NCBI GenBank assembly: GCA_043814095.1
Contig: JBDRKI010000023.1
Coordinates: forward strand, 277 to 64,276
From: Armatimonadota bacterium
GTDB lineage: Bacteria > Vulcanimicrobiota > JACPDS01 > JBDRKI01
DNA: 64,000 bases
Reading direction: 5' to 3'
The number at the start of each line of letters is the position of its first letter. Within the stretch, counting starts at the first letter, position 1. This document shows, one piece after another, positions 48 through 55,185 of this stretch. The notes under the pieces were generated by a model. The model saw only the letters and a list, made by a program, of their open reading frames with translations, made no database searches and had not been told where the DNA came from. Both the position numbers and the translations under genes were made by a program.

Positions 48-86
48 TTAACAATTTAGTAACAATTTGTTAACATTTTGTTAATA
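48..86 (+). promoter_or_regulatory. Array of four TTAACA-like hexamers at exact 11-bp spacing (starts 48, 59, 70, 81) upstream of ORF 141-1487; PhoP/OmpR-type direct-repeat box candidate
   Basis: Read directly: TTAACA-atttag-TAACA-atttg-TTAACA-ttttg-TTAATA. TT(A/T/C)ACA direct repeats with 4-6 bp spacers are the B. subtilis PhoP~P consensus, and OmpR-family regulators bind 10-11 bp phased direct repeats. Confidence 0.45.
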
Positions 87-15481: not shown

Positions 15482-16018
15482 CTAAGTCCTCTTTTCTTCC
15501 CATAATAGAATACCTCTTTCTAATTCTTCGTAAAAGACAGGATTGTTTTTTTTGGTTTTTATAAGCTCATTGGGTGTTTTAATAACATATTGAATCTTTT
15601 CTCTCAAGCTGTCTTTAAAAATTATTTTTTCGGCTTTGTCCGGGTATTGTGTAATAATAAAAATATCTATATCGCTTTGAGAGTGATTTTTTCCCGTTGC
15701 GCAGCTTCCGTAAAGAATTATTTTTATGGATATTTCTTTCAGTTTGTCAATTAACGGTTGTAAAAAAGTAGCGGTTTGCAATATTTTTAAATGCTTTATA
15801 ATTATACTGTCCGTAGGTGCTTTATAGAAAGACATTCTGCCGCGTTTTTCTCTTAAAATTAATCCCTTTTCAGCCAAATTTCTCAATGCGAAATTTGTTC
15901 CTGCTCTGCTTACTCCTGTTAATTTTGAAATTTCACGGTCGAAATATTCATTGCCCGGATTTTGAATAAGGAAAGAGAGTATCTTTTGCGCATTAGTAAA
16001 AAACAAGAGATTTTGCAT
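15482..16018 (-). CDS. Minimal nucleotidyltransferase (MNT) with N-terminal winged-helix DNA-binding domain
   Basis: LYGSCATGKNHSQSDIDIFI (GSxxxG...DxD) Pol-beta-type NTase motif; N-terminal wHTH (LTGVSRAGTNFALRNLAEKGLI). Confidence 0.7.
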   Translation of the reverse strand: MQNLLFFTNAQKILSFLIQNPGNEYFDREISKLTGVSRAGTNFALRNLAEKGLILREKRGRMSFYKAPTDSIIIKHLKILQTATFLQPLIDKLKEISIKIILYGSCATGKNHSQSDIDIFIITQYPDKAEKIIFKDSLREKIQYVIKTPNELIKTKKNNPVFYEELERGILLWEEKRT

Positions 16019-16030
16019 TACAAACGCCCC

Positions 16031-16070
16031 AATCTATTATATTAGATTTAAATCTATTATAATAGATTTA
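16031..16070. promoter_or_regulatory. Two tandem 20-bp imperfect palindromes (AATCTA-N6/8-TAGATT) 13 bp upstream of the MNT start; candidate autoregulatory operator
   Basis: AATCTATTATATTAGATTTA / AATCTATTATAATAGATTTA read directly. Confidence 0.5.
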
Positions 16071-21892: not shown

Positions 21893-22321
21893 TTATTTCA
21901 TGCCTATAAGAATAACTCCCAAGGAAGTAAAAATAAGGCCGGTTATGTTAACTAATGTAACCGGTTCTTTTAATAGTATGGTTCCTAGCACATATCCGAG
22001 TACAGGTGTTAATCCGAACGCTATGGGGATTACCCGGCTTAAGTGGCCCGTGCTTATACCCATGTAAAAGCAGAGCATCCCGAAAGATCCGGCTATTACC
22101 CCGCCTCCTATTATGATATAAAGAAGGGGTTTTATGCCGCAGCTTGACACAGATCCCCATTTTGTGAAGCTGAACAAGCTTAATACGATAAGGGCTATAA
22201 ATGTACGCATTGTAATACCTGCCACAGGCGGGATACCCCCCATATTAAGCCCCTTCTTTTCAAAAAAGCCGCCCACACTCCAGAGGACGGCCGTAAGAAT
22301 TGCCAGAGTTACTGCTTTCAT
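21893..22321 (-). CDS. EamA-like small transporter (DMT superfamily, 4 TM)
   Basis: Hydrophobic 142-aa protein with an EamA-like pattern. Confidence 0.5.
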   Translation of the reverse strand: MKAVTLAILTAVLWSVGGFFEKKGLNMGGIPPVAGITMRTFIALIVLSLFSFTKWGSVSSCGIKPLLYIIIGGGVIAGSFGMLCFYMGISTGHLSRVIPIAFGLTPVLGYVLGTILLKEPVTLVNITGLIFTSLGVILIGMK

Positions 22322-22323
22322 TT

Positions 22324-23157
22324 TTATTCTCCCGAAAATAAGTTAAACATAAAATCCACGCCGCATAGAAAATCTTTGCTTGATGTGTGGCCGTAATTTA
22401 TGTTTTCAAGTTCTTCTTCTTTTAACGGTATATCGCTTGCCAGTTTTTCAAAAAGGATAAACTGCCAGTCGCTTACATATCCCATCATCGCCAGGACAAT
22501 ATAATACCACGATATCCTGCCGGTTTTTTTGTAAATAACCCGCGCTGTTTTTAAAAACGGCGGGTTCCATATTTTTTCTGTCCTGCCGGCTTCAATAAGA
22601 AGCTTCATCACAAGTATCGTCCCGCATATAAAATCATCAGTTGAAGGGGTAAGGCCTTCCCCGAGGCCGGCTATATCTGTCAGATTTTCATAGAATTTGC
22701 CGGGGTTATTTTTTTTCCACGCTTTTTCCATTTTTTCTATATTTATTTTTATAAGGTCAAGATACGCAAAATCGGTTTTTTTAACATAAGAGTTAAGCGC
22801 GGAAATATTTTGTTTGTTTAAAGGGTCAAATTTAATATCATTAATTTTTTTTGAAGAATGGTCAATTGGATTAAGGTAAATCATTTTGTCGTCGGAGTAA
22901 CATCTCCCGCGCTGTATATGAAAATATTTTTTTTCTTTAAAAAAATCCGGCATCCTGTAAGGGAATACGGCTGTTACCGGGTTGCACTGTTCGTTTGTTC
23001 CGGCAAGCAGGGTAACTATTTTAGAATTATTTAAGGAAACATAAGCGGTCCTGTGCGAACGCGATATGATTTCACAGCTGTACCTGCGCGGATCAAAGAA
23101 AAGTTTTCTAATGTGTCTGTCTACAACTATATCAACCGGTTGATGCATAGTACACAA
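22324..23157 (-). CDS. Hypothetical protein co-oriented with the Mo-hydroxylase genes (possible accessory factor); contains GLGEGLTPSTDDFICG motif
   Basis: ORF 4 nt downstream of the Mo-subunit gene; family not recognised. Confidence 0.4.
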   Translation of the reverse strand: MCTMHQPVDIVVDRHIRKLFFDPRRYSCEIISRSHRTAYVSLNNSKIVTLLAGTNEQCNPVTAVFPYRMPDFFKEKKYFHIQRGRCYSDDKMIYLNPIDHSSKKINDIKFDPLNKQNISALNSYVKKTDFAYLDLIKINIEKMEKAWKKNNPGKFYENLTDIAGLGEGLTPSTDDFICGTILVMKLLIEAGRTEKIWNPPFLKTARVIYKKTGRISWYYIVLAMMGYVSDWQFILFEKLASDIPLKEEELENINYGHTSSKDFLCGVDFMFNLFSGE

Positions 23158-23160
23158 TCC

Positions 23161-25551
23161 TTATTTATTTTTTTTTAATGCTTCAAGTCCTTTGAGTATT
23201 TTTTCCGCCGTAACGGGGAGATCTTTTATCCTTACCCCCGTCGCATTATATACCGCGTTGGCTATTGCGGCAGGTGTCGGTATCATTGTATGTTCGCCGA
23301 CGCCTCTTGCGCCGTAGGGCCCGTCGAGCTGCGCGGTCTCCACGAAGGTTGCTATCATCTCTTCAGGCATATCTTTGGATGTGGGTATCTTGTAATCAAC
23401 AAAGGACTGATTTAAGACCCTGCCTGTTTTCTCATCCAGATGGAGCTGCTCCATAATGCCCGCGCCCATGCCCTGCACGATGCCTCCGTATGCCTGACCG
23501 AGCGCTCCCTGCGGGTTTATTACCTTGCCTATATCATATGTGCAGGCAACTTTAAAAATTGTAATCCTGCCGGTATCCGGGTCTACGGAAAGATCCACTG
23601 CCTGGCCTCCGAAAGTCCAGTTTGCGACCGGTTTAGGGGACTGTCCTGTTTCCGGATCGCAGTTTATGCACCCTTGAGCCGTAAAGTATCCTCTGCCGGC
23701 AACAGCCCCGCCTATTGTATGGCCGTCAGGGTACTGGTATCCCATGCAGATATCCTTAATGTCTATCTTTTTGGACTTATCTGTTTTTGAAATTATATAT
23801 CCGTCCTTTATTTCTAAATCAGAAAGTGATCTCTGCAGGGCCTCTTTGGCTATAGTGAATAATTGTTTTTTTGCATCTTCACAGGCCTTCTTCACTGCAT
23901 TCCCGCAGGAGAATGTCAATCTGCTTGCGACTGTCTGCCATTCATATGGCGAGTAATCCGTATCAGGCAGTGCTATGACAGCGACTTTTTCAACAGGGAT
24001 GCCCAGTTCTTCTGCGGCAATCTGAGCCATCGCGGTCATAACGCCCTGGCCGATCTCCATGCCGCTGAACATAAGCTCTATCCCCCCGTCTTCGTTGAAT
24101 TTTAACATGGCGGCCGAAGTTGCATTATTAGGCATGGCAGGGGCTTTCTGCGCCAGAGCAAATCCTACCGCCCTGTATTTTGGTCTTTCCTTATAGTAGT
24201 CTATATTTTTTGTAACTTCATTGATACATTTTTCTATATCACCGGTATTTTTTGTTACATACTGGCCTGTTGCCGTATGGGATCCTTCTCTTAATATATT
24301 TTTCTTTCTGAATTCTACCGGATCAAATCCTAAATCCCGGGCCATCATATCCATATGCTGTTCAATGCCCCAGTGGATTTCGCTCATCCCGAACCCGCGG
24401 AAAGCGCTCCCGACAGGTCTGTTGGTGTATACTCCTATTGAATCTCCCTTAAGGTTGTCTATATTATAGGGGCCGCATAATGAATAGCCGGCCGCCCTTA
24501 CTATATTAACACCGTATCCGGCGTATGCGCCGCAGTCCCAGATATACTCGTTTTCCTGCGCTATGATTCTTCCGTCTTTTGTAATGCCGGATTTTATCCT
24601 TATGTGGCATGCCTGTCTTACTACAACAGCGTGCATCTCTTCTTCTCTTGTGAGTATGAGTTTTACAGGGAGCCCCGTGCATTTCATGGAGAGAGCCACG
24701 GCTATGGGTTCTATGTTAATACCTGCCTTACATCCGAACCCCCCGCCTACGAAGGGAGCTATTACTCTGAAATCGTTTATTTTTTTACCGAAACAGTGTG
24801 AGAGAAGATATCTTACGGTAAAAGGCGACTGGCATGAAGACCATACGGTTGTTTTCCCCGCGTGGTCTGTTACCGCTATAGACCCGTGAGTCTCCATGGG
24901 TACATGCTGTATCTGCGGAACATAGAATCTGTTTTCAATTATATGGTCAGCTTCTTTAAACGCTTTTTTAGGATCGCCCTTCCTTATTTTAAAGTGATTC
25001 GCGATATTGGTATGGGGAACGGGGTTTATTGCGCTTACGTGAAAATATTTATGAAGCTCGGGATGAACAAGCGGCGCGCCTTTTTTCATTCCCTGTATGG
25101 GATCAAAGTTCGGTTTAAGTTTTTTGTATTTCACTTTTATAAGGGAGAGGGCTCGCTCCGCTATCTCTTCGGTTTCGGCCGCGACTGCCGCGACCGGCTC
25201 GCCCACATAACGCACTTTTTCCATGGCGAATATGTACTGGTCAACATGGTATATGCCCACATTATACGGGTAATCTTTTCCTGTTATAACTGCCTTTACC
25301 CCGGGAAGCTTTTCCGCTTCGGTTGTGTCTATTTCTATCATAGCGTGGGGTTCAGCGCTTCTTAAAACTTTCGCTATTAATGTGCCTGAAAGCTGGATAT
25401 CATCAACATATTTTGCGGCGCCAGTTACTTTCGCGAGGGCGTCTACACGCGCGGTTTTTTTGCCTATAACATTATATTCTTCTTTTTCTATGTCCATAGA
25501 TTCTATCTGGTTGAATATTTCGGTCTGTGTCATAACTTCAGCGTTTTTCAT
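23161..25551 (-). CDS. Xanthine dehydrogenase/aldehyde oxidase family molybdopterin-binding large subunit
   Basis: 796 aa with characteristic MoCo-binding blocks (GGGFG, molybdopterin-binding domain motifs). Confidence 0.85.
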   Translation of the reverse strand: MKNAEVMTQTEIFNQIESMDIEKEEYNVIGKKTARVDALAKVTGAAKYVDDIQLSGTLIAKVLRSAEPHAMIEIDTTEAEKLPGVKAVITGKDYPYNVGIYHVDQYIFAMEKVRYVGEPVAAVAAETEEIAERALSLIKVKYKKLKPNFDPIQGMKKGAPLVHPELHKYFHVSAINPVPHTNIANHFKIRKGDPKKAFKEADHIIENRFYVPQIQHVPMETHGSIAVTDHAGKTTVWSSCQSPFTVRYLLSHCFGKKINDFRVIAPFVGGGFGCKAGINIEPIAVALSMKCTGLPVKLILTREEEMHAVVVRQACHIRIKSGITKDGRIIAQENEYIWDCGAYAGYGVNIVRAAGYSLCGPYNIDNLKGDSIGVYTNRPVGSAFRGFGMSEIHWGIEQHMDMMARDLGFDPVEFRKKNILREGSHTATGQYVTKNTGDIEKCINEVTKNIDYYKERPKYRAVGFALAQKAPAMPNNATSAAMLKFNEDGGIELMFSGMEIGQGVMTAMAQIAAEELGIPVEKVAVIALPDTDYSPYEWQTVASRLTFSCGNAVKKACEDAKKQLFTIAKEALQRSLSDLEIKDGYIISKTDKSKKIDIKDICMGYQYPDGHTIGGAVAGRGYFTAQGCINCDPETGQSPKPVANWTFGGQAVDLSVDPDTGRITIFKVACTYDIGKVINPQGALGQAYGGIVQGMGAGIMEQLHLDEKTGRVLNQSFVDYKIPTSKDMPEEMIATFVETAQLDGPYGARGVGEHTMIPTPAAIANAVYNATGVRIKDLPVTAEKILKGLEALKKNK

Positions 25552-25566
25552 ATTTACCTCCGCGTA

Positions 25567-26034
25567 TTACACATTCACGTTTATACTGTCTCTTATGGCT
25601 TCAATAATTTGTTTGTAACCTGTGCACCTGCATAAATTACCAGCAATAGCTTCTTTTATATCTTCATCTGACGCTTCCGGGTTTTTCATTAAGAGTGCTT
25701 TCGCGCTCATAAGCATCCCGGGGGTGCAGAACCCGCACTGTATGGCGTTATGTTCTATGAATTTTTTCTGTAAGGGGTCAAGCTCCCCGTCTTTCGGGAG
25801 CCCCTCAACGGTTATGATATCCGCACCGTCTGCTTCAACTGCCAGCATTAAACAGGAATTAACGGCTTTCCCGTTTACTATGACGGTGCATGCTCCGCAT
25901 TCGCCTTCACCGCATCCTTCTTTTGTGCCTGTGAGATAGAGTACTTCCCTTAAGAATTTTAATAAGGTCATGGAGTTGTCAGAAATCTGTTTTGTTTCCT
26001 TTTTACCGTTTATCGTAAAGGTTATGGTTTTCAT
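25567..26034 (-). CDS. (2Fe-2S)-binding small subunit of Mo-hydroxylase
   Basis: CGEGECGACTV and CGFCTPG cluster motifs. Confidence 0.9.
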   Translation of the reverse strand: MKTITFTINGKKETKQISDNSMTLLKFLREVLYLTGTKEGCGEGECGACTVIVNGKAVNSCLMLAVEADGADIITVEGLPKDGELDPLQKKFIEHNAIQCGFCTPGMLMSAKALLMKNPEASDEDIKEAIAGNLCRCTGYKQIIEAIRDSINVNV

Positions 26035-26056
26035 AATCCACCTCGTTAATTTTTTA
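26028..26056. repeat. 29-bp direct repeat copy 1 (TTTTCATAATCCACCTCGTTAATTTTTTA): stop-RBS-start junction
   Basis: Identical to 26506-26534; contains the 2Fe-2S start codon and RBS plus the hicA stop. Confidence 0.8.
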
Positions 26057-26282
26057 AAAGCCGTTCCAGTGTCTCTGGTGTAATATCGATATCTCTTAGA
26101 ATTTTTCTGAGAAGGCCCCGGCCTATGGTTTTTCCTTTGTGAACGGGTATGGTTGTTATTCTTCCGTCGGGATGATGGTATCTCCAGTGACTTCCTCTGG
26201 ATTTTCTTGTATTTTTAAAACCGAGTTTTTCAATAATAACTATTAATTTCTCAGGTTTTAAAACAGGTAATTTTTTACTCAT
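26046..26282 (-). CDS. hicA: HicA toxin (mRNA interferase)
   Basis: 78 aa with the HicA/YcfA pattern (GSHxxxxHP). Confidence 0.8.
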   Translation of the reverse strand: MSKKLPVLKPEKLIVIIEKLGFKNTRKSRGSHWRYHHPDGRITTIPVHKGKTIGRGLLRKILRDIDITPETLERLLKN

Positions 26283-26512
26283 ACGGCTATCTCCAGATAT
26301 TTAACTCCTATAATTTCGGGATACCGCAAATTAATAACCTTTTTAGATTGTTCGACTTCTTCCAAACAAATTTTAATCACATCTTTTATATTTTTCATAG
26401 CTTCTTCAAAAGTATCGCCTTGAGAATAACAACCTTCCAAACTCGGACAGGAAACTATATATTTCCCGTCTTCATCCATTTCCACCAAAACCGGTACATT
26501 GTATTTTTTCAT
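26279..26512 (-). CDS. hicB: HicB antitoxin (UPF0150-like)
   Basis: 77 aa with the HicB N-terminal fold pattern; overlaps hicA by 4 nt. Confidence 0.75.
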   Translation of the reverse strand: MKKYNVPVLVEMDEDGKYIVSCPSLEGCYSQGDTFEEAMKNIKDVIKICLEEVEQSKKVINLRYPEIIGVKYLEIAV

Positions 26513-26534
26513 AATCCACCTCGTTAATTTTTTA
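26506..26534. repeat. 29-bp direct repeat copy 2
   Basis: Identical to 26028-26056; contains the hicB start and RBS plus the FAD-subunit stop. Confidence 0.8.
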
Positions 26535-27360
26535 GCTCATTTACCGCTTTTATAAATAGTTCTTTGGCAATTTTACATCTGAAATCAGCCGAGCCTCTTA
26601 AATCCGATATGGGTTTAAGAGGGAGGAGTTCCGCCGCTTTTGTAATTGATTTTAGATCCAGGCCGTGTTTTGCAAGGTGTTTCTCGCTGTTTTTGGCCCT
26701 TGCGGTTATGGCCGCGCATGCTCCCACTGCAGCTCTTATACCGGGTTTTGATTTGTGGCTTACAAATGCCACAGCAATATTTACCGTTGAAAGATCAACT
26801 GCTTTTCTTCTTGAGAATTTATAGAATATGCTTTTAACGCCTTCCGGCTTAGGTATTGTTACCGATTCTACAAATTCATCCGGCTTAAGTACGGTCTGTC
26901 CGGGGCCTTTAAAGAATTTATGTATAGATATGCTCTTTTTTCTGCCGCCTGATATTATATTAAGCTTAGCGTCATAAATTAGGAGTGCAGGGAGGGTATC
27001 TGCCGCGGGGGACGCGTTGCAGATATTTCCCGCAAGAGTTGCCCTGTTTCTTATCTGGTATGAACCGACCTCCCTTGCGCCCTGTGTAAGGGAAGGATAA
27101 TATTCATTTATAATATTATTTTCAGCCAGCTGGTTTAAGCTGACTCCTGCGCCTATTGTAATATCTTTTTTGGATTCAACAATAGAATTTATACCTTTAA
27201 TATTCTTAATATCTATTACGCATGAGGGTTTTATTGTTTTATGGCGCAGTTTAACGAAAAGATCTGTGCCGCCCCCCAAAAGATATGTATCTTTTTTATT
27301 TTTCTTGAGGAGTTTTTTAAGTTCGGCCGTGCTTGAAGGTCTATAGTATTCAAAATTCAT
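26524..27360 (-). CDS. FAD-binding subunit of Mo-hydroxylase (CoxM/XdhB-like)
   Basis: N-terminal Y(Y)RPxSxxEAxxLL...LLGGGTDL FAD-binding motif. Confidence 0.85.
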   Translation of the reverse strand: MNFEYYRPSSTAELKKLLKKNKKDTYLLGGGTDLFVKLRHKTIKPSCVIDIKNIKGINSIVESKKDITIGAGVSLNQLAENNIINEYYPSLTQGAREVGSYQIRNRATLAGNICNASPAADTLPALLIYDAKLNIISGGRKKSISIHKFFKGPGQTVLKPDEFVESVTIPKPEGVKSIFYKFSRRKAVDLSTVNIAVAFVSHKSKPGIRAAVGACAAITARAKNSEKHLAKHGLDLKSITKAAELLPLKPISDLRGSADFRCKIAKELFIKAVNELKN

Positions 27361-29831: not shown

Positions 29832-30019
29832 ATTATTATTACCTCCGTTTTAAAGTGTAAAAAGCTTCTATTTAAATAAAAACTATTCCTTTATTTTTGA
29901 ATATATTGCTTACCGATAATTATATAAAGGATATAAGGTATAAAAGGAGAAAAAAATATAAAATTCATTCTTTTTATTACTGCAACCCATTATATTATTA
30001 CTTTAATAAGGTGAGAATT

Positions 30020-33000
30020 ATGCGCAGAAATTTCCAAACTTTACTTATATCAGCATTGTTTTGTTTAATACTGGCAGGCATAACTTATACATCTGCTGTT
30101 TCCGGCACATGGAATGTTGTTTTTGTAATAAGTAAACTTCCTGCAGAAGCGGTATCGGGTACAATTTTAGATGTAAAAATAGGGGATACCTCTTTTGCTC
30201 TTCCTGCTCAGGCCGGCGCAAAGAAGGTGGTTCAGGTTACTTATAAAGGCGCTGATGACAGCCAGCTTAAAGCCAAAACTAACAGACATATAAAAAACCT
30301 TCCTTTTTCCGTTAAATTAAAGAAAGGAAACAGTGTGCTTGCGGAAAGATCTGAAAGTTATCTGCCTTGTTATGCTTTAAACTTCGGCACTGGCGGTCAG
30401 ATCGGTTTTTTAGTGGTCCCGGTTTATAAAAGAGGCGGATCTTCCGCGCCTTCGGTTTCGAAATCCGGCACGGAAGCGCCCGGTGCGGGAGTACCCGGTG
30501 CGGGAGTACCCGGTGCGGGTTCGGCTTCCGGTATATCGGAAGGTATAGGTGAAGGCAGCGGCAATGTAGATGTTTCTACTCTTCCTCCGGCAGGAGGTGC
30601 TGAATTAACCGGTATATGGAAGCCCGAAGTTGGTTACCACTGGATTTATCAAAGAGCAGGCGGCAGAAAAGAATCTTTATGGAAGCCTGCAGACTGGCAC
30701 ATGAACCAGCTTGCCGTTGCGTATGATCTTCCGGGTATTTTTGAAAATAAAGTTTTAAGAACCGAAAATCTAAATGGAAAATTATGTTGGGTAATAGAAT
30801 CAAAACAGACAGAAGAGCAGATACTTGTAAAAGACGGTGTTGAGTATCCCTGCAGGAAGCAGACCCTTACATTTTTAAACTGGATTGATTGTAAAACAAA
30901 TAAAATATTAAAAAGTTGTTTTGAAGAGAAGACCCTTTATTCTCCTGTTCCTTCATGGTTAAAGGATTATTTTAAACCTCTTAACAGCAGAAGAGAAACA
31001 GTATCTACCAATATGAATTATATGGCGGGAACAATGACAGAGCGTGAAATTGTTTATAACGAGGATTTAACGACAAAGAAAAAAGATACAGCTAAAACTG
31101 TTAATATCCGCCAGTTCGGATATCCCGATGCGGATTTTACGAATGCTCTTAATTCGCCTTTAGCCGTGGGCGGCAGTTATAAAATGTTTAATGTCTCGGG
31201 CACGGCGAACGCGTCTACTCCGGCGGGCCTTTACCCTTGCTATGTTTTGCAGTCCGGTCCGGCTTCTATATATGCGACACAGGCTAACCATTTTATAGTA
31301 AAATTTGTTATTCCGTACCGGCAGGGTCAGACTGAAGAAAGGGAACTTATTTACGCTAACTTTAATATAGGGCAGCCCCCGGCGCAGGTTGCGGCAATGG
31401 AGGTTATTGAACTTAAGCGCTGCAGGGAATATTATGAATTAGAAGATGCCGGCAGGTGGGTAAATCTTACCTATAAGATAAAGAACAGGGGCAATAAATA
31501 CGGGTTTGTATCCTATGACGTTAAACTTTATAAAAAGGATGAGCCCAACAGTACCATGCAGGTTGATTCAGGTGAGATTAAAACTCTTTCTGCCAGTAAA
31601 ACTGTTGAGAAGAAGAGCAAGTTCTGGCTGGACGGCGATAATAAAAAGCCGCCGGGCATATATGTAGCTAAAGTTATCCTTTATGATGAGAACAAAAATG
31701 TTCTTGATACGGAACTTGTTGAATTTCAGGTTTACACAAAACCGGAGCTGAGCATTCTGGAAGTAAAGCTTTTTAAGGATAAGTTTTTTCAACCCGAAGA
31801 TCAAGTTTCGGTAGTATGCGGGGTGGAAAATCTGGGATATGACGGCGATATGAAAGTCAAATCTCAGATTGAAGATAAAGACGGAAAAATTTACGCGGAA
31901 GGTTTTGCCGGGAAAAAGAATTTTTACGGCAAGCAAAACAAAGAGTATGTCAGCCAGTATGAAAGTTACGAGCATATTAAGATTGACCTGCCGGAAGATA
32001 TCCCTCCGGGAGAGTACAGGATAAAGACAGCCGCTTACTGGGTAAAGCCGAATGCAAGGGGCGAGGAGAAGCAGGATGAGGAGATGTTCTTCCCCGTTGT
32101 TGTCGGTGAAATTCTAGTTTCGGATATAATCCCTTTGCGGGGTTCACAGAGATTCCCGTTTAAGTTAAAGGCTGTTTATACCAATAAGAACGATATGCCG
32201 GCTAAGGGAGTTACCGGATATGTCGGGAACACGCCGTTTACGCTTGATGCGGCTGATAACGCGGATAAAAATCTTTTAGACGGCAAAGAATACATTTATA
32301 AATTCATTCCCGCAGATGCCGGCCGTACTTTTAAATGGGGAAAGCATGAATATAAGGCAAATGCGGAGGTTAAGGATAAAAGTTATACGTCGCCTTCAAA
32401 GAAGTTTGAGATAGGTCCTTATGAGTATATAGAAGAAGATGAAACTTATATTAAAAATACTTACTGGTATAAAGAATCCGGCAAAAGGGATAAAAAATAC
32501 GATTTTTCCGGAGGGGTAAATTATAAGGGTAAAAAATATTACCCTGTCTGTATAACGCGGGGAGGTTCTCCCAACGGACATCTCTGGATTGATGAAAACG
32601 AGCTTGTGCTTGAAGATGAGAACATAATAAAGGCATTGTTCGTTTATGTTGTTGTATGCGGCGACGGAAGCAAGATTCCGGAAGAGATAGCCGATTATAA
32701 CGCGAAAGTTGATGAAGACGCGGAAGCAATGAATGATATGATAGACGAAGCAAAGTTCGGTAAAGTGGCGGAGCTTTCTTCAAATATTATAGGCGTTGTT
32801 TTTTCCGTTGAAACCCTTGCGACCGGCGGCGCCGGGGCGGTTGCGAAAATAGGCAGCGTTCTGGCGGTAATTGATATTGTGGCGCAGACAAAATCAAGCA
32901 AAGATATTTTAACTGACTTATGCGCCATGGACGAGAACAGTTTAGGCAACGCGGCTGATGTTGAAAACTTCCAGCAGATAGAAAAGCTTCAGGTTAAGTC

Positions 33001-33712
33001 TCCGGTTAATGAACCGTTTAAAACAGGGTACGGGGAAGTGTCGCTTACAGCCGGCACCATTAAAGAAGCGGCGGAAGTTATACAGATGTATAACGCAAGA
33101 CAGACACAGCTCAAGAGTTTCGCGAGCGCGTTTGCCGCAAGTCAGAGCAAGGCGCTTATTAACAAGGCGATGTTGAAATCAAAAATGGCGTCAGCGGGTT
33201 TTTCTATGGGAACGGCAATCGCGGCATGGATAGAAAGCCCTGGTGATATTGCTCCTGACGCGTTATACCTTGCGCTGTGCTATCAGAAAAGGTGCATCTT
33301 AGATAAAAAGATAGTAGAAATTTATAAAAATGCCCGGGACGGGATATCAAGGGATGAAGAAGTAAATGATCTTATACTTCTTCCGATAAACAAGGCGCTT
33401 TCGGCGTCTATGGCCGCCGTTATTCTGGAAGAAGGCGCGTCCATACTTGATAAGCGCGGGAAAACCATATCGGGCGCGCTTATAAGAGGGTCGCTCTGGG
33501 CGGCTAAAAAAGCGGGCATTACCGACAAAGACTACGGCGACAGGATAGAGGAGATAAGGGAAGAAGGCGCCTCTATGGCAAGAAGTCTGTCAAATATGTA
33601 TATGGATGAATATGAACATAACGATAAAGTAATTTCGTACCAGCTAAGCAATGCAATGACGCGGATTAATCTCGGTGAGCAGTTAAGAAATACGTTTGAC
33701 AGAAAGATATAG
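30020..33712 (+). CDS. Very large secreted protein (~1230 aa), unknown function; contains (PGAGV)x3 repeat and a C-terminal ~350-aa alpha-helical region
   Basis: ATG at 30020 with AAGGTGAG RBS and a signal peptide (the ORF-track start at 29897 is rejected); no recognisable catalytic motif. Confidence 0.55.
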   Translation: MRRNFQTLLISALFCLILAGITYTSAVSGTWNVVFVISKLPAEAVSGTILDVKIGDTSFALPAQAGAKKVVQVTYKGADDSQLKAKTNRHIKNLPFSVKLKKGNSVLAERSESYLPCYALNFGTGGQIGFLVVPVYKRGGSSAPSVSKSGTEAPGAGVPGAGVPGAGSASGISEGIGEGSGNVDVSTLPPAGGAELTGIWKPEVGYHWIYQRAGGRKESLWKPADWHMNQLAVAYDLPGIFENKVLRTENLNGKLCWVIESKQTEEQILVKDGVEYPCRKQTLTFLNWIDCKTNKILKSCFEEKTLYSPVPSWLKDYFKPLNSRRETVSTNMNYMAGTMTEREIVYNEDLTTKKKDTAKTVNIRQFGYPDADFTNALNSPLAVGGSYKMFNVSGTANASTPAGLYPCYVLQSGPASIYATQANHFIVKFVIPYRQGQTEERELIYANFNIGQPPAQVAAMEVIELKRCREYYELEDAGRWVNLTYKIKNRGNKYGFVSYDVKLYKKDEPNSTMQVDSGEIKTLSASKTVEKKSKFWLDGDNKKPPGIYVAKVILYDENKNVLDTELVEFQVYTKPELSILEVKLFKDKFFQPEDQVSVVCGVENLGYDGDMKVKSQIEDKDGKIYAEGFAGKKNFYGKQNKEYVSQYESYEHIKIDLPEDIPPGEYRIKTAAYWVKPNARGEEKQDEEMFFPVVVGEILVSDIIPLRGSQRFPFKLKAVYTNKNDMPAKGVTGYVGNTPFTLDAADNADKNLLDGKEYIYKFIPADAGRTFKWGKHEYKANAEVKDKSYTSPSKKFEIGPYEYIEEDETYIKNTYWYKESGKRDKKYDFSGGVNYKGKKYYPVCITRGGSPNGHLWIDENELVLEDENIIKALFVYVVVCGDGSKIPEEIADYNAKVDEDAEAMNDMIDEAKFGKVAELSSNIIGVVFSVETLATGGAGAVAKIGSVLAVIDIVAQTKSSKDILTDLCAMDENSLGNAADVENFQQIEKLQVKSPVNEPFKTGYGEVSLTAGTIKEAAEVIQMYNARQTQLKSFASAFAASQSKALINKAMLKSKMASAGFSMGTAIAAWIESPGDIAPDALYLALCYQKRCILDKKIVEIYKNARDGISRDEEVNDLILLPINKALSASMAAVILEEGASILDKRGKTISGALIRGSLWAAKKAGITDKDYGDRIEEIREEGASMARSLSNMYMDEYEHNDKVISYQLSNAMTRINLGEQLRNTFDRKI
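30479..30520 (+). repeat. 15-bp tandem repeat CCCGGTGCGGGAGTA x2.8 within the large CDS
   Basis: Read directly; encodes PGAGVPGAGVPGAG. Confidence 0.85.
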
Positions 33713-54894: not shown

Positions 54895-55146
54895 ATATCA
54901 AAAATATACTGCTAAGTCAAAATAATATATATTTTTGTTAAATACGAAAATCAGGAAGCGGCAATATAGGCGCCATTAATGCCGTGAGAGCCTTAGGATT
55001 TGTCCCGGGGGTAACTGTCCTTATGGCAGATATTGTGACATACTCACGGGGTTAAAACTCCATGCATCTTTGGTTTTCAGATGCTAGAGCTTCCTGCTTC
55101 AACGATACTTGACTCGTAGACCATTACCCCTCAAGGGGGTAAAATG

Positions 55147-55185
55147 TTAACAAATTGTTAACATATTTGTAACATTTTTGTAACA
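55147..55185 (+). promoter_or_regulatory. Four TTAACA/GTAACA hexamers at exact 11-bp spacing (55147, 55158, 55169, 55180) followed by a TATAAT -10
   Basis: Same architecture as the arrays at 48-86 and 2902-2929. Confidence 0.45.

What the first reader, a model, noticed from the sequence alone, without database searches (positions are those of the whole stretch)
26028..26534. hicB-hicA toxin-antitoxin cassette inserted between Mo-hydroxylase subunit genes, bracketed by a 29-bp duplicated stop-RBS-start junction
The FAD-subunit gene and the 2Fe-2S-subunit gene of a xanthine-dehydrogenase-family operon are separated by hicB-hicA. The identical sequence TTTTCATAATCCACCTCGTTAATTTTTTA occurs at both cassette boundaries (26028-26056 and 26506-26534). 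Each copy provides a stop codon for the upstream gene and an RBS (AGGTGG) plus ATG for the downstream gene. This looks like a scarless insertion of a TA module into an operon with duplication of the intergenic junction, keeping all four genes translationally coupled. That is an unusually clean footprint of TA-cassette mobility.
Basis: seen in the sequence. Interest (0 to 1): 0.6.

Follow-up and report, generated by a model that had tools for sequence, protein, structure and literature searches.

The report
hicBA toxin-antitoxin inserted inside metabolic operon
A small HicB/HicA toxin-antitoxin gene pair lies between two subunit genes of a xanthine-dehydrogenase-type operon, flanked by an exact 29-base duplicate of the stop/ribosome-site/start junction; this is a tidy single-case insertion footprint of a known kind of event, not a new system.

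Summary
TTTTCATAATCCACCTCGTTAATTTTTTA occurs exactly twice in the window, at 26028-26056 and 26506-26534. It is the longest dispersed exact repeat in the 64 kb. On the coding (minus) strand each copy reads TA AAA AAT TAA-CGAGGTGGATT-ATG AAA A, which is a stop, a Shine-Dalgarno site and a start.

Pfam confirms the gene order FAD subunit, HicB (77 aa, no DNA-binding domain), HicA, 2Fe-2S subunit, Mo subunit, AllH.

Five related operons (FAD subunit 50-69% identical) have the FAD and 2Fe-2S genes abutting or overlapping with no hicBA. The FAD tail "AVNELK" is native. The closest HicA homologues end two residues earlier ("LL*"), so hicA's "KN*" most likely comes from duplicated target sequence. 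ATGAAAA is native to both the hicB and 2Fe-2S starts, giving a 7-nt microhomology.

None of 145 other hicBA loci shows a boundary duplication (longest shared word 5-11 nt), and none is near XDH genes.

Best reading: a one-off, recombinase-independent illegitimate insertion with target duplication. The pair is expressed from the host operon promoter.

Caveats: this is a single MAG contig, no conspecific empty allele was found, and the mechanism is inferred. TA insertion into intercistronic sites is already known (relA-mazEF-mazG, dinB-yafNO-yafP). Interest is modest.

The parts
26506..26534 (-). Repeat copy 1 (29 nt). On the minus strand it holds the last codons and TAA stop of the FAD-subunit gene, the spacer CGAGGTGGATT with a GAGGTG Shine-Dalgarno site, and ATG AAA A of hicB.
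26028..26056 (-). Repeat copy 2 (29 nt, identical). It holds the last codons (K N) and TAA stop of hicA, the same spacer and Shine-Dalgarno site, and ATG AAA A of the 2Fe-2S gene.
26057..26505 (-). Unique 449-nt insert between the repeats: hicB from its third codon to hicA up to its last Leu codon. GC is 0.354 against a window mean of 0.409 (13th percentile of 449-nt windows).
26279..26512 (-). hicB antitoxin, 77 aa. [quoted passage not shown]
   Evidence: Pfam PF15919, 46.2 bits, profile positions 2-54 of 123. PDB 2YZT (TTHA1756, 67 aa) and HicB 6G1C. 77-aa homologues in L088 and L089.
26046..26282 (-). hicA toxin, 78 aa. Its start overlaps the hicB stop (ATGA). The conserved G-S-H motif is present (H32). 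The KN tail is two residues longer than in the closest homologues.
   Evidence: Pfam PF07927, 62 bits. Alignment A1. PDB 1WHZ, E 1.4e-10. dN/dS about 0.1.
26524..27360 (-). FAD-binding (medium) subunit of a xanthine-dehydrogenase/CO-dehydrogenase-family molybdenum hydroxylase, 278 aa, full length.
   Evidence: Pfam PF00941 plus PF03450; homologues
25567..26034 (-). 2Fe-2S (small) subunit, 155 aa, full length. Its N-terminus MKTITFTINGKK matches relatives.
   Evidence: Pfam PF01799 plus PF00111
23161..25551 (-). Molybdopterin-binding (large) subunit, 796 aa.
   Evidence: Pfam PF01315, PF02738, PF20256
22324..23157 (-). AllH-like gene. It follows the Mo subunit here and in all relatives examined, which shows the operon is conserved.
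   Evidence: Pfam PF11392
27404..27432 (-). Candidate sigma-70-type promoter (TTGACT-17-TAGAAT with TG) in the 112-nt AT-rich gap upstream of the FAD gene. It is the presumed promoter of the whole operon including hicBA. This is a consensus match only.

Best explanation
A promoterless hicB-hicA pair was acquired horizontally. It is a minimal HicB antitoxin without a DNA-binding domain plus a HicA mRNA-interferase toxin. It was inserted by a single illegitimate, recombinase-independent event into the junction between the FAD-subunit and 2Fe-2S-subunit genes of a conserved Mo-hydroxylase operon (FAD, 2Fe-2S, Mo, AllH). The event duplicated 20-29 bp of the target: the FAD stop region, the Shine-Dalgarno spacer and the 2Fe-2S start. 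The left copy now supplies hicB with a ribosome-binding site. The right copy gives hicA a new KN-stop tail and leaves the 2Fe-2S gene with its original translation signals. The junctions fall in microhomologies: ATGAAAA is shared by the native hicB and 2Fe-2S starts, and at least TA is shared by the last Leu codons of hicA and the FAD gene. That pattern is what replicative template switching would give: leaving the target at ATGAAAA, copying the donor, then re-entering 29 nt upstream. Some other microhomology-mediated join would also fit. All six genes stay intact and tightly spaced. hicBA has no room for its own promoter, so it is transcribed with the operon from the promoter upstream of the FAD gene. 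Shown: the repeat, the gene identities, the empty sites in relatives, and the native status of the FAD tail and of ATGAAAA. Inferred: a single event, the template-switch mechanism, co-transcription, and TA activity.
For: The exact 29-nt repeat occurs only at the two boundaries, with 0 expected by chance. Pfam identifies all genes. Five relatives have FAD and 2Fe-2S adjacent or overlapping and followed by Mo and AllH, without hicBA: L083, L084, L085/L086, L087 and L090. The FAD tail 'FIKAVNELK' is shared with P0008/L090, and 'EL.K' tails are seen in P0002-P0005, so the TA AAA A part of the repeat is native to the FAD gene. The five closest HicA homologues (74-76% identical, 76 aa) and 16 of 23 aligned homologues end at the Leu that precedes the window's KN; L088 and L089 end CTG TAA and CTA TGA. 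hicB starts GTG/ATGAAAAAATA in L088 and L089, and the 2Fe-2S gene starts ATGAAAAC in L087 and L083, so ATGAAAA is a native microhomology. The insert has lower GC and GC3 (0.27-0.30 vs 0.35-0.47 in the operon genes). The closest hicBA relatives sit in unrelated contexts and phyla. No terminator-like site lies between the FAD and Mo genes on the coding strand except one weak 5-pair consensus match inside the 2Fe-2S gene (25875..25861), and total hits are below the shuffle expectation; a promoter-like site lies upstream of the FAD gene. hicBA is intact, with dN 0.17-0.22 and saturated dS relative to its nearest relatives.
Against: No conspecific empty-site allele with a single 29-mer was found; the relatives are at most 69% identical in the FAD protein, so the pre-insertion junction is inferred. 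In those relatives the junction overlaps or abuts rather than being TAA, 11 nt, ATG, so the origin of the spacer CGAGGTGGATT (target or cassette) is undecided. The two closest relatives (L001, L002) have contigs that end 31 and 16 nt after the FAD stop, so their state is unknown. The insert's GC is only 1.25 SD below the window mean. The whole structure rests on one MAG contig, and each of the four proteins is a singleton in the 15-billion-protein collection. The rest of the genome could not be searched for the 29-mer. Duplication with microhomology does not by itself identify template switching.
Confidence: 0.68

Rival explanations
1. Campbell-type or site-specific integration. In this view the 29-mer is a recombination site carried by a circular or tandem hicBA unit of 478 bp. 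That unit integrated by a single crossover with an identical or near-identical site at the operon junction, so one copy comes from the cassette.
For: A single crossover between a circle and a target sharing a site gives exactly one direct repeat on each side of the insert. The 478-bp unit would be a self-contained RBS-hicB-hicA-stop module. hicB relatives do carry their own GAGGTG-type ribosome-binding sites.
Against: It needs a pre-existing 29/29 identity between cassette and target. The FAD-tail part of the repeat is native to the FAD gene, and the closest HicA homologues lack the KN tail. No tandem arrays of this cassette appear in 162 loci. No integrase or recombinase was found in the ORFs of 120 aa or more that I scanned between 11.5 and 41 kb. 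No attC-like inverted repeat is present. None of 145 related cassettes has boundary repeats, and the 22-nt core is found nowhere else.
Confidence: 0.1
2. Two-step origin. hicBA first inserted without duplication. A later local copy (gene conversion or a small duplication) of the FAD/hicB junction was then fixed because it restored a good ribosome-binding site for the 2Fe-2S gene.
For: Selection for 2Fe-2S translation is plausible. In relatives its ribosome-binding site lies inside the FAD tail (GAGGTG encoding E-V), and an insertion would have separated the gene from that site.
Against: It requires two rare events with boundaries that happen to coincide with the stop region and the start. The duplicated segment also rewrote the hicA C-terminus (KN*), which is not needed to restore a ribosome-binding site. 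The boundaries are sharp with no flanking similarity.
Confidence: 0.08
3. Assembly artefact or population mixture. The contig joins sequences from different molecules or strains at a shared short word, so the FAD-hicBA-2Fe-2S arrangement does not exist in one genome.
For: The source is a single metagenome-assembled contig, and all four proteins are singletons. Contigs of the nearest relatives break right after the FAD gene, which hints at graph complexity at this junction. A 29-nt repeat equals one of the k values I recall being commonly used by metagenome assemblers (from memory, not checked).
Against: For a path to enter and leave hicBA through the 29-mer, real molecules must already carry the 29-mer on both sides of hicBA, so the repeat would be real anyway. 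29 nt is far shorter than reads and the final k-mers. Both junctions give in-frame, complete genes whose termini match their homologues.
Confidence: 0.07
4. hicBA is ancestral to this operon and was lost in the relatives, for instance by deletion between the repeats.
For: Direct repeats 478 nt apart would allow precise deletion. The state of the two closest relatives is unknown.
Against: Five relatives across the 50-69% identity range all lack it, and their junctions are of different overlapping types, not a single 29-mer-like scar. The cassette's closest relatives (72% nt identity, 76% aa identity) lie in unrelated gene contexts. None of about 160 hicBA loci is next to XDH genes. The cassette has lower GC3 than the operon.
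Confidence: 0.03

Closest known systems
Chromosomal type II TA pairs inserted in intercistronic regions of host operons: mazEF in relA-mazG and yafNO in dinB-yafP of E. coli (review PMC7167474, read)
   Same: A TA pair sits between two genes that form an undisturbed operon in relatives lacking the TA. The insertion is unrelated to the operon's function. No mobility gene is associated. The review states that the integration mechanism is 'unelucidated'.
   Different: Here the pair is hicBA in a Mo-hydroxylase operon of an uncultured bacterium. The junction is duplicated exactly (29 nt), so both the TA and the downstream host gene receive the same ribosome-binding site. I did not read of such a duplication for the E. 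coli cases, and I did not check them.
Minimal HicAB of the Thermus thermophilus type (HicA TTHA1913, PDB 1WHZ; HicB-like TTHA1756, PDB 2YZT) and hicBA-ordered loci with HicB lacking a DNA-binding domain (review PMC11594946)
   Same: HicA is about 70-78 aa and matches 1WHZ (E 1.4e-10). HicB is about 67-77 aa, has only the N-terminal domain and matches 2YZT (E 2.4e-5). The antitoxin gene comes first. [quoted passage not shown]
   Different: Most relatives of this subfamily have their own upstream intergenic region. Only 3 of 68 are tightly embedded on both sides between co-directional ORFs. Here only 11 nt separate the pair from the upstream gene.
ParE/ParD-like TA of Microcystis aeruginosa PCC 7806, flanked by two identical 152-bp direct repeats (PMC7935541)
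   Same: A chromosomal TA pair is bracketed by identical direct repeats and lies downstream of a host gene.
   Different: Those repeats are 152 bp, lie in non-coding DNA 120-147 bp from the genes and contain inverted repeats, so they resemble a repeat element. Here the repeat is 29 bp and is itself the stop/ribosome-site/start junction of the host operon.
Target-site duplications of transposable elements, and attC-bounded integron TA cassettes
   Same: Both involve a direct duplication flanking an inserted segment, and a promoterless cassette expressed from an upstream promoter.
   Different: There is no transposase, terminal inverted repeat, integrase or attC. At 29 nt the duplication is much longer than usual TSDs (from general knowledge, typically 2-14 bp). 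The insert without the repeat would lack the hicB start and the hicA stop.

Membership tests
HicAB type II toxin-antitoxin | The toxin matches the HicA family model (PF07927) above its curated threshold | tested here: met
   62 bits against a cut-off of 27, E 5.8e-17, profile positions 3-58 of 58. PDB 1WHZ, E 1.4e-10.
HicAB type II toxin-antitoxin | A conserved catalytic histidine in HicA (His23/24 in characterised HicA proteins, per PMC11594946) | tested here: met
   H32 in the G-S-H motif is invariant in the 24-sequence alignment A1. Its equivalence to E. coli His23 is by motif and from memory, not by structural alignment.
HicAB type II toxin-antitoxin | The antitoxin has the HicB N-terminal (partial RNase H-like) domain | tested here: met
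   PF15919, 46.2 bits against a cut-off of 27. PDB 2YZT, 6G1C and 6G1N.
HicAB type II toxin-antitoxin | [quoted passage not shown] | tested here: not met
   HicB is 77 aa and matches only profile positions 2-54 of 123; no other Pfam domain was found. The review notes such HicB proteins are common, so this marks a subtype and does not exclude membership.
HicAB type II toxin-antitoxin | Adjacent, co-directional and usually overlapping gene pair | tested here: met
   hicB 26279-26512 and hicA 26046-26282 share a 4-nt ATGA overlap. The same order is seen in 77 of 80 genome loci.
HicAB type II toxin-antitoxin | HicA is toxic (mRNA cleavage) and is neutralised by HicB | not testable with these tools
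   Only indirect evidence is available: intact ORFs and dN/dS about 0.1 against the nearest relatives.
Xanthine dehydrogenase / CO dehydrogenase-family Mo hydroxylase operon | Three subunits are present: FAD (FAD_binding_5 plus CO_deh_flav_C), 2Fe-2S (Fer2 plus Fer2_2), and Mo (Ald_Xan_dh_C plus MoCoBD_1/2) | tested here: met
   All domains are above their cut-offs with full profile coverage. The same gene order followed by AllH is found in L083, L084 and L085.
Transposon or IS insertion with target-site duplication | A transposase and/or terminal inverted repeats inside the duplicated flanks | tested here: not met
   The insert encodes only hicB and hicA. Its ends are not inverted repeats; the best inverted pair is internal and 72% complementary.
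Integron gene cassette | An attC recombination site at the cassette 3' end and an integrase/attI nearby | tested here: not met
   There is no attC-like imperfect palindrome between the hicA stop and the 2Fe-2S start (the spacer is 11 nt). No integrase was found among the neighbouring ORFs scanned.
Dispersed repeat element (REP/MITE-like) | Multiple copies across the genome | tested here: inconclusive
   Only the two copies occur in the 64-kb window. The 22-nt core has 0 hits in the genome, metagenome and viral collections. The source genome is not in those collections, so the rest of it was not searched.

The most novel reading that the evidence does not exclude
The 29-nt junction duplication could be the footprint of a general integration route for promoterless TA cassettes that needs no recombinase and has not been described. 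In this route, microhomology-mediated template switching at start and stop regions regenerates translation signals on both sides. The resulting operon-embedded hicBA, which lacks a DNA-binding domain, would then act as an 'operon addiction' module. Toxin and antitoxin would be made only when the purine-catabolic operon is transcribed, and shut-off or deletion (including precise excision between the repeats) would be punished by the stable toxin.
Probability: 0.1. Interest if true: 0.6.

Novelty: new member of a known kind. Interest (0 to 1): 0.33.

Why it matters
A 2020 review (PMC7167474) says it is still unknown how chromosomal TA pairs, which carry no mobility genes, integrate into genomes. 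This locus preserves both junctions of one such event at base resolution: a 7-nt microhomology at one side, at least 2 nt at the other, and a 20-29-nt duplication of the target that kept every gene translatable. It offers a concrete hypothesis (microhomology-mediated duplicative insertion) and a search image (boundary duplications at TA pairs embedded in operons) that can be tested across genomes. It also shows a HicB without a DNA-binding domain placed where only a host operon promoter can drive it. Its weight is limited. It is one case on one MAG contig, and 145 related hicBA loci show nothing similar.

Tried and rejected
- **Exact-protein contig look-ups.** Look-ups for the window's HicB, its FAD subunit and P0001 found nothing on record, so the source contig could not be re-fetched.
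- **Scans for the repeat core.** The 22-nt core TTAACGAGGTGGATTATGAAAA gave 0 hits in genome contigs, metagenome contigs and viral contigs. I therefore have no conspecific allele and no dispersed copies, and the source genome is not in these collections.
- **Boundary duplication as a subfamily property.** I tested 145 hicBA loci. The longest shared word was 5-11 nt, so this idea is rejected.
- **hicBA and XDH association elsewhere.** No FAD, 2Fe-2S or Mo hits lie near any of about 160 hicBA loci.
- **Tandem or circular donor.** There are no tandem arrays of the cassette in 162 loci.
- **Transposon or integron.** No transposase, TIR, attC or integrase was found.
- **Own promoter for hicBA.** The only consensus match near copy 1 (26527..26498) puts its -10 hexamer inside hicB codons 4-5, downstream of the ATG, so it cannot serve hicB.
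- **Riboswitch or RNA element.** Rfam gave no match at E <= 0.1 between 12 and 34 kb.
- **Plasmid or phage vector.** Only two plasmid HicA matches were found, at 46-49% identity, and none in phages.
- **Composition as proof of foreign origin.** This is weak: the insert GC falls at the 13th percentile of window segments.
- **A 16-nt insertion idea.** I considered that CTAAAAAATTAACGAG is itself a 16-nt insertion into an ancestral AATGAGGTGGATTATG junction, by analogy with L087. I rejected it as over-fitting, because N-E-L-K is native in P0008/L090.
- **dS-based dating.** dS is saturated.
Full report
**Observation**

The 29-mer TTTTCATAATCCACCTCGTTAATTTTTTA occurs at 26028-26056 and 26506-26534 and nowhere else in the window, even allowing three mismatches. 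None of 100 dinucleotide-preserving shuffles gave any match. The identity stops sharply on both sides. It is the longest exact dispersed direct repeat in the 64 kb. No subword of 11 nt or more recurs elsewhere in the window.

All the relevant genes are on the minus strand:
- FAD subunit, 26524-27360
- hicB, 26279-26512
- hicA, 26046-26282
- 2Fe-2S subunit, 25567-26034
- Mo subunit, 23161-25551
- an AllH-like gene, 22324-23157

Read on that strand, the repeat is TA AAA AAT TAA | CGAGGTGGATT | ATG AAA A. Copy 1 ends the FAD gene (…ELKN*) and starts hicB (MKK…). Copy 2 ends hicA (…LLKN*) and starts the 2Fe-2S gene (MKT…). hicB and hicA overlap by ATGA.

**Identities**

Pfam places every protein above its curated cut-off: HicA_toxin at 62 bits, HicB_lk_antitox at 46 bits, FAD_binding_5 plus CO_deh_flav_C, Fer2 plus Fer2_2, and Ald_Xan_dh_C plus MoCoBD_1/2.

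HicA matches Thermus TTHA1913 (PDB 1WHZ). HicB matches the 67-aa TTHA1756 (PDB 2YZT) and the N-terminal domain of solved HicB proteins. HicB is 77 aa and covers only positions 2-54 of the 123-position profile, so it has no HTH or RHH domain. According to the HicAB review this is common (PMC11594946).

The wider cluster carries AllH, an AllF-like protein, AllG, a permease and an amidohydrolase. This points to a purine/oxamate-type catabolic context.

The four proteins are NCBI MFH1452656.1-MFH1452659.1 from a MAG labelled Armatimonadota, on a 74,391-nt contig. Each is a singleton in the large protein collection.

**Is it an insertion?**

The nearest FAD-subunit relatives are only 50-69% identical, so DNA-level comparison of the junction is impossible. 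Gene order can still be compared. Five loci all have FAD, 2Fe-2S, Mo and (where the contig reaches) AllH, with FAD and 2Fe-2S abutting or overlapping and no hicBA:

| Locus | FAD identity to window |
|---|---|
| L087 | 69% |
| L090 | 55% |
| L084 | 54% |
| L083 | 53% |
| L085/L086 | 50% |

Two other relatives (L001 at 69% and L002 at 67%) are uninformative, because their contigs stop 31 and 16 nt after the FAD stop.

The cassette's own closest relatives are L088 and L089 (76% aa identity for HicA, 70-72% nt identity). They lie in unrelated contexts. None of about 160 hicBA loci fetched from genomes and metagenomes has XDH genes nearby.

GC3 of hicB and hicA is 0.27-0.30, against 0.35-0.47 for the operon genes. 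Overall GC of the insert is only at the 13th percentile of window segments, so composition is weak support.

Together these results support acquisition by insertion into a pre-existing operon.

**Which side owns the repeat?**

- The FAD tail is native. P0008/L090 ends FIKAVNELKK…, and other relatives end EL(G/T)K.
- The five closest HicA homologues, and 16 of 23 aligned homologues, stop at the Leu that precedes the window's KN. L088 and L089 end CTG TAA and CTA TGA. The KN-stop of hicA is therefore most simply a copy of the FAD tail.
- ATGAAAA is native to both partners. hicB relatives start GTG/ATGAAAAAATA, and 2Fe-2S relatives start ATGAAAAC.
- The origin of the 11-nt spacer is undecided. 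In relatives the ribosome-binding site for the 2Fe-2S gene lies inside the FAD tail (GAGGTG encoding E-V) and the genes overlap.

The simplest reading is a duplication of 20-29 nt of target. The joins fall in a 7-nt microhomology (ATGAAAA) and a microhomology of at least 2 nt (TA).

**Mechanism (inferred)**

Nothing in or near the insert resembles a transposase, terminal inverted repeats, an integrase or an attC site. Without the repeat the 449-nt insert would lack the hicB start and the hicA stop, so a classical target-site duplication is unlikely.

Boundary duplication is not a habit of this cassette family. In 145 hicBA loci the longest word shared by the two boundaries is 5-11 nt, against 29 here. 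No tandem cassette arrays were seen.

A single illegitimate event fits best. One example is replicative template switching that leaves the target at ATGAAAA, copies the donor, and re-enters 29 nt upstream. It would give both the microhomologies and the duplication. Selection would keep only outcomes in which the 2Fe-2S gene retains a ribosome-binding site.

The rivals are listed with their weights:
- Campbell-type integration through a pre-existing 29-nt site
- a two-step compensatory duplication
- assembly chimera
- ancestral presence with loss in relatives

**How it works now (inferred)**

The spacers are as follows:

| Junction | Spacing |
|---|---|
| FAD to hicB | 11 nt |
| hicB to hicA | 4-nt overlap |
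| hicA to 2Fe-2S | 11 nt |
| 2Fe-2S to Mo | 15 nt |
| Mo to AllH | 3 nt |

No convincing terminator-like site lies between the FAD and Mo genes on the coding strand. The only match there is a weak 5-pair stem inside the 2Fe-2S gene, and total hits are below the shuffle expectation. The best promoter-like site (TTGACT-17-TAGAAT with TG) lies in the AT-rich gap upstream of the FAD gene. The only match near hicB has its -10 hexamer downstream of the hicB ATG.

hicBA is therefore most likely transcribed as part of the operon mRNA. HicB has no DNA-binding domain and cannot autoregulate. Both genes are intact, and dN is 0.17-0.22 with saturated dS against their nearest relatives, which is consistent with purifying selection. 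Tight embedding on both sides is uncommon but not unique in this subfamily: 3 of 68 loci, including L089.

**Comparison with the known**

TA pairs inserted into intercistronic regions of otherwise intact operons are textbook cases (mazEF in relA-mazG, yafNO in dinB-yafP). The same review states that the integration mechanism is unknown (PMC7167474). A TA flanked by identical 152-bp direct repeats has been described in Microcystis, but those repeats are non-coding repeat elements (PMC7935541).

This locus is a new member of that known kind. What is unusual is the exact duplication of a stop/ribosome-site/start junction.

**Verdict**

Interest is modest. It is a clean single-case footprint relevant to an open mechanistic question, but it rests on one MAG contig and is not seen in 145 related loci.

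Noticed in passing
window 16031-16070 and 15482-16018 (-): A tandem pair of 20-nt units (AATCTATTATATTAGATTTA / AATCTATTATAATAGATTTA), each largely palindromic, lies just upstream of a 178-aa gene. That gene combines a winged-HTH with a Polbeta/NTP_transf_2 (MNT-like) domain. It sits between AllG and a CoA-transferase gene in the same catabolic cluster. It may be a second small defence/TA-type gene lodged in the cluster, with its operator. No HEPN partner was seen.
   Followed up: partly
L089 725-1185; also L031 and L061: The closest hicBA relative (HicA 76% identical) is also wedged between co-directional genes: 15 nt after a 235-aa ORF, with the hicA stop overlapping the start of a CTP_transf_like gene by ATGA. 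No boundary duplication is present. In all, 3 of 68 loci of this subfamily are embedded this tightly.
   Followed up: partly
L001 6773-6803 and L002 3263-3278: Contigs of the two closest FAD-subunit relatives end 31 and 16 nt after the FAD stop. L001 ends in a perfect 28-nt palindrome (GTAGGGTACAGGCATGCCTGTACCCTAC). L001's DNA homology to the empty-site relative L087 stops about 30 nt before the FAD stop. The FAD/2Fe-2S junction may be variable, or an insertion hot spot, in this lineage.
   Followed up: partly
L084 4708-5571 and L085 2893-3617: Mobile-element genes flank related XDH operons. A Y1_Tnp (IS200/IS605 or REP-associated) gene lies just after AllH in L084. IS3-type HTH_Tnp_1/rve fragments lie upstream of the FAD gene in L085/L086.
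   Followed up: no
window 66-84, 2901-2929 and 55141-55160: The motif TTTGTTAACATTTTGTTAA recurs. It is direct at 66 and 2909, with an overlapping tandem copy at 2901, and inverted near 55141-55160. It contains GTTAAC half-sites and may be an operator or other regulatory motif.
   Followed up: no
window 29897-33712 (+): A 1271-aa ORF has no Pfam match and contains an internal GAGVPGAGVPGAG repeat (a 26-nt tandem DNA repeat at 30479-30519). Large ORFs of 1428-1480 aa with no confident Pfam domain sit divergently upstream of the FAD gene in relatives L001 and L087, which suggests conserved synteny. In the window, a permease gene and a DUF4412 gene lie in between.
   Followed up: no
window 21893-22321 (-): A half-size (142-aa, single-domain) EamA-family transporter gene directly follows AllH inside the operon. 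In relatives L083 and L085, AllH is followed by the AllF-like gene instead.
   Followed up: no
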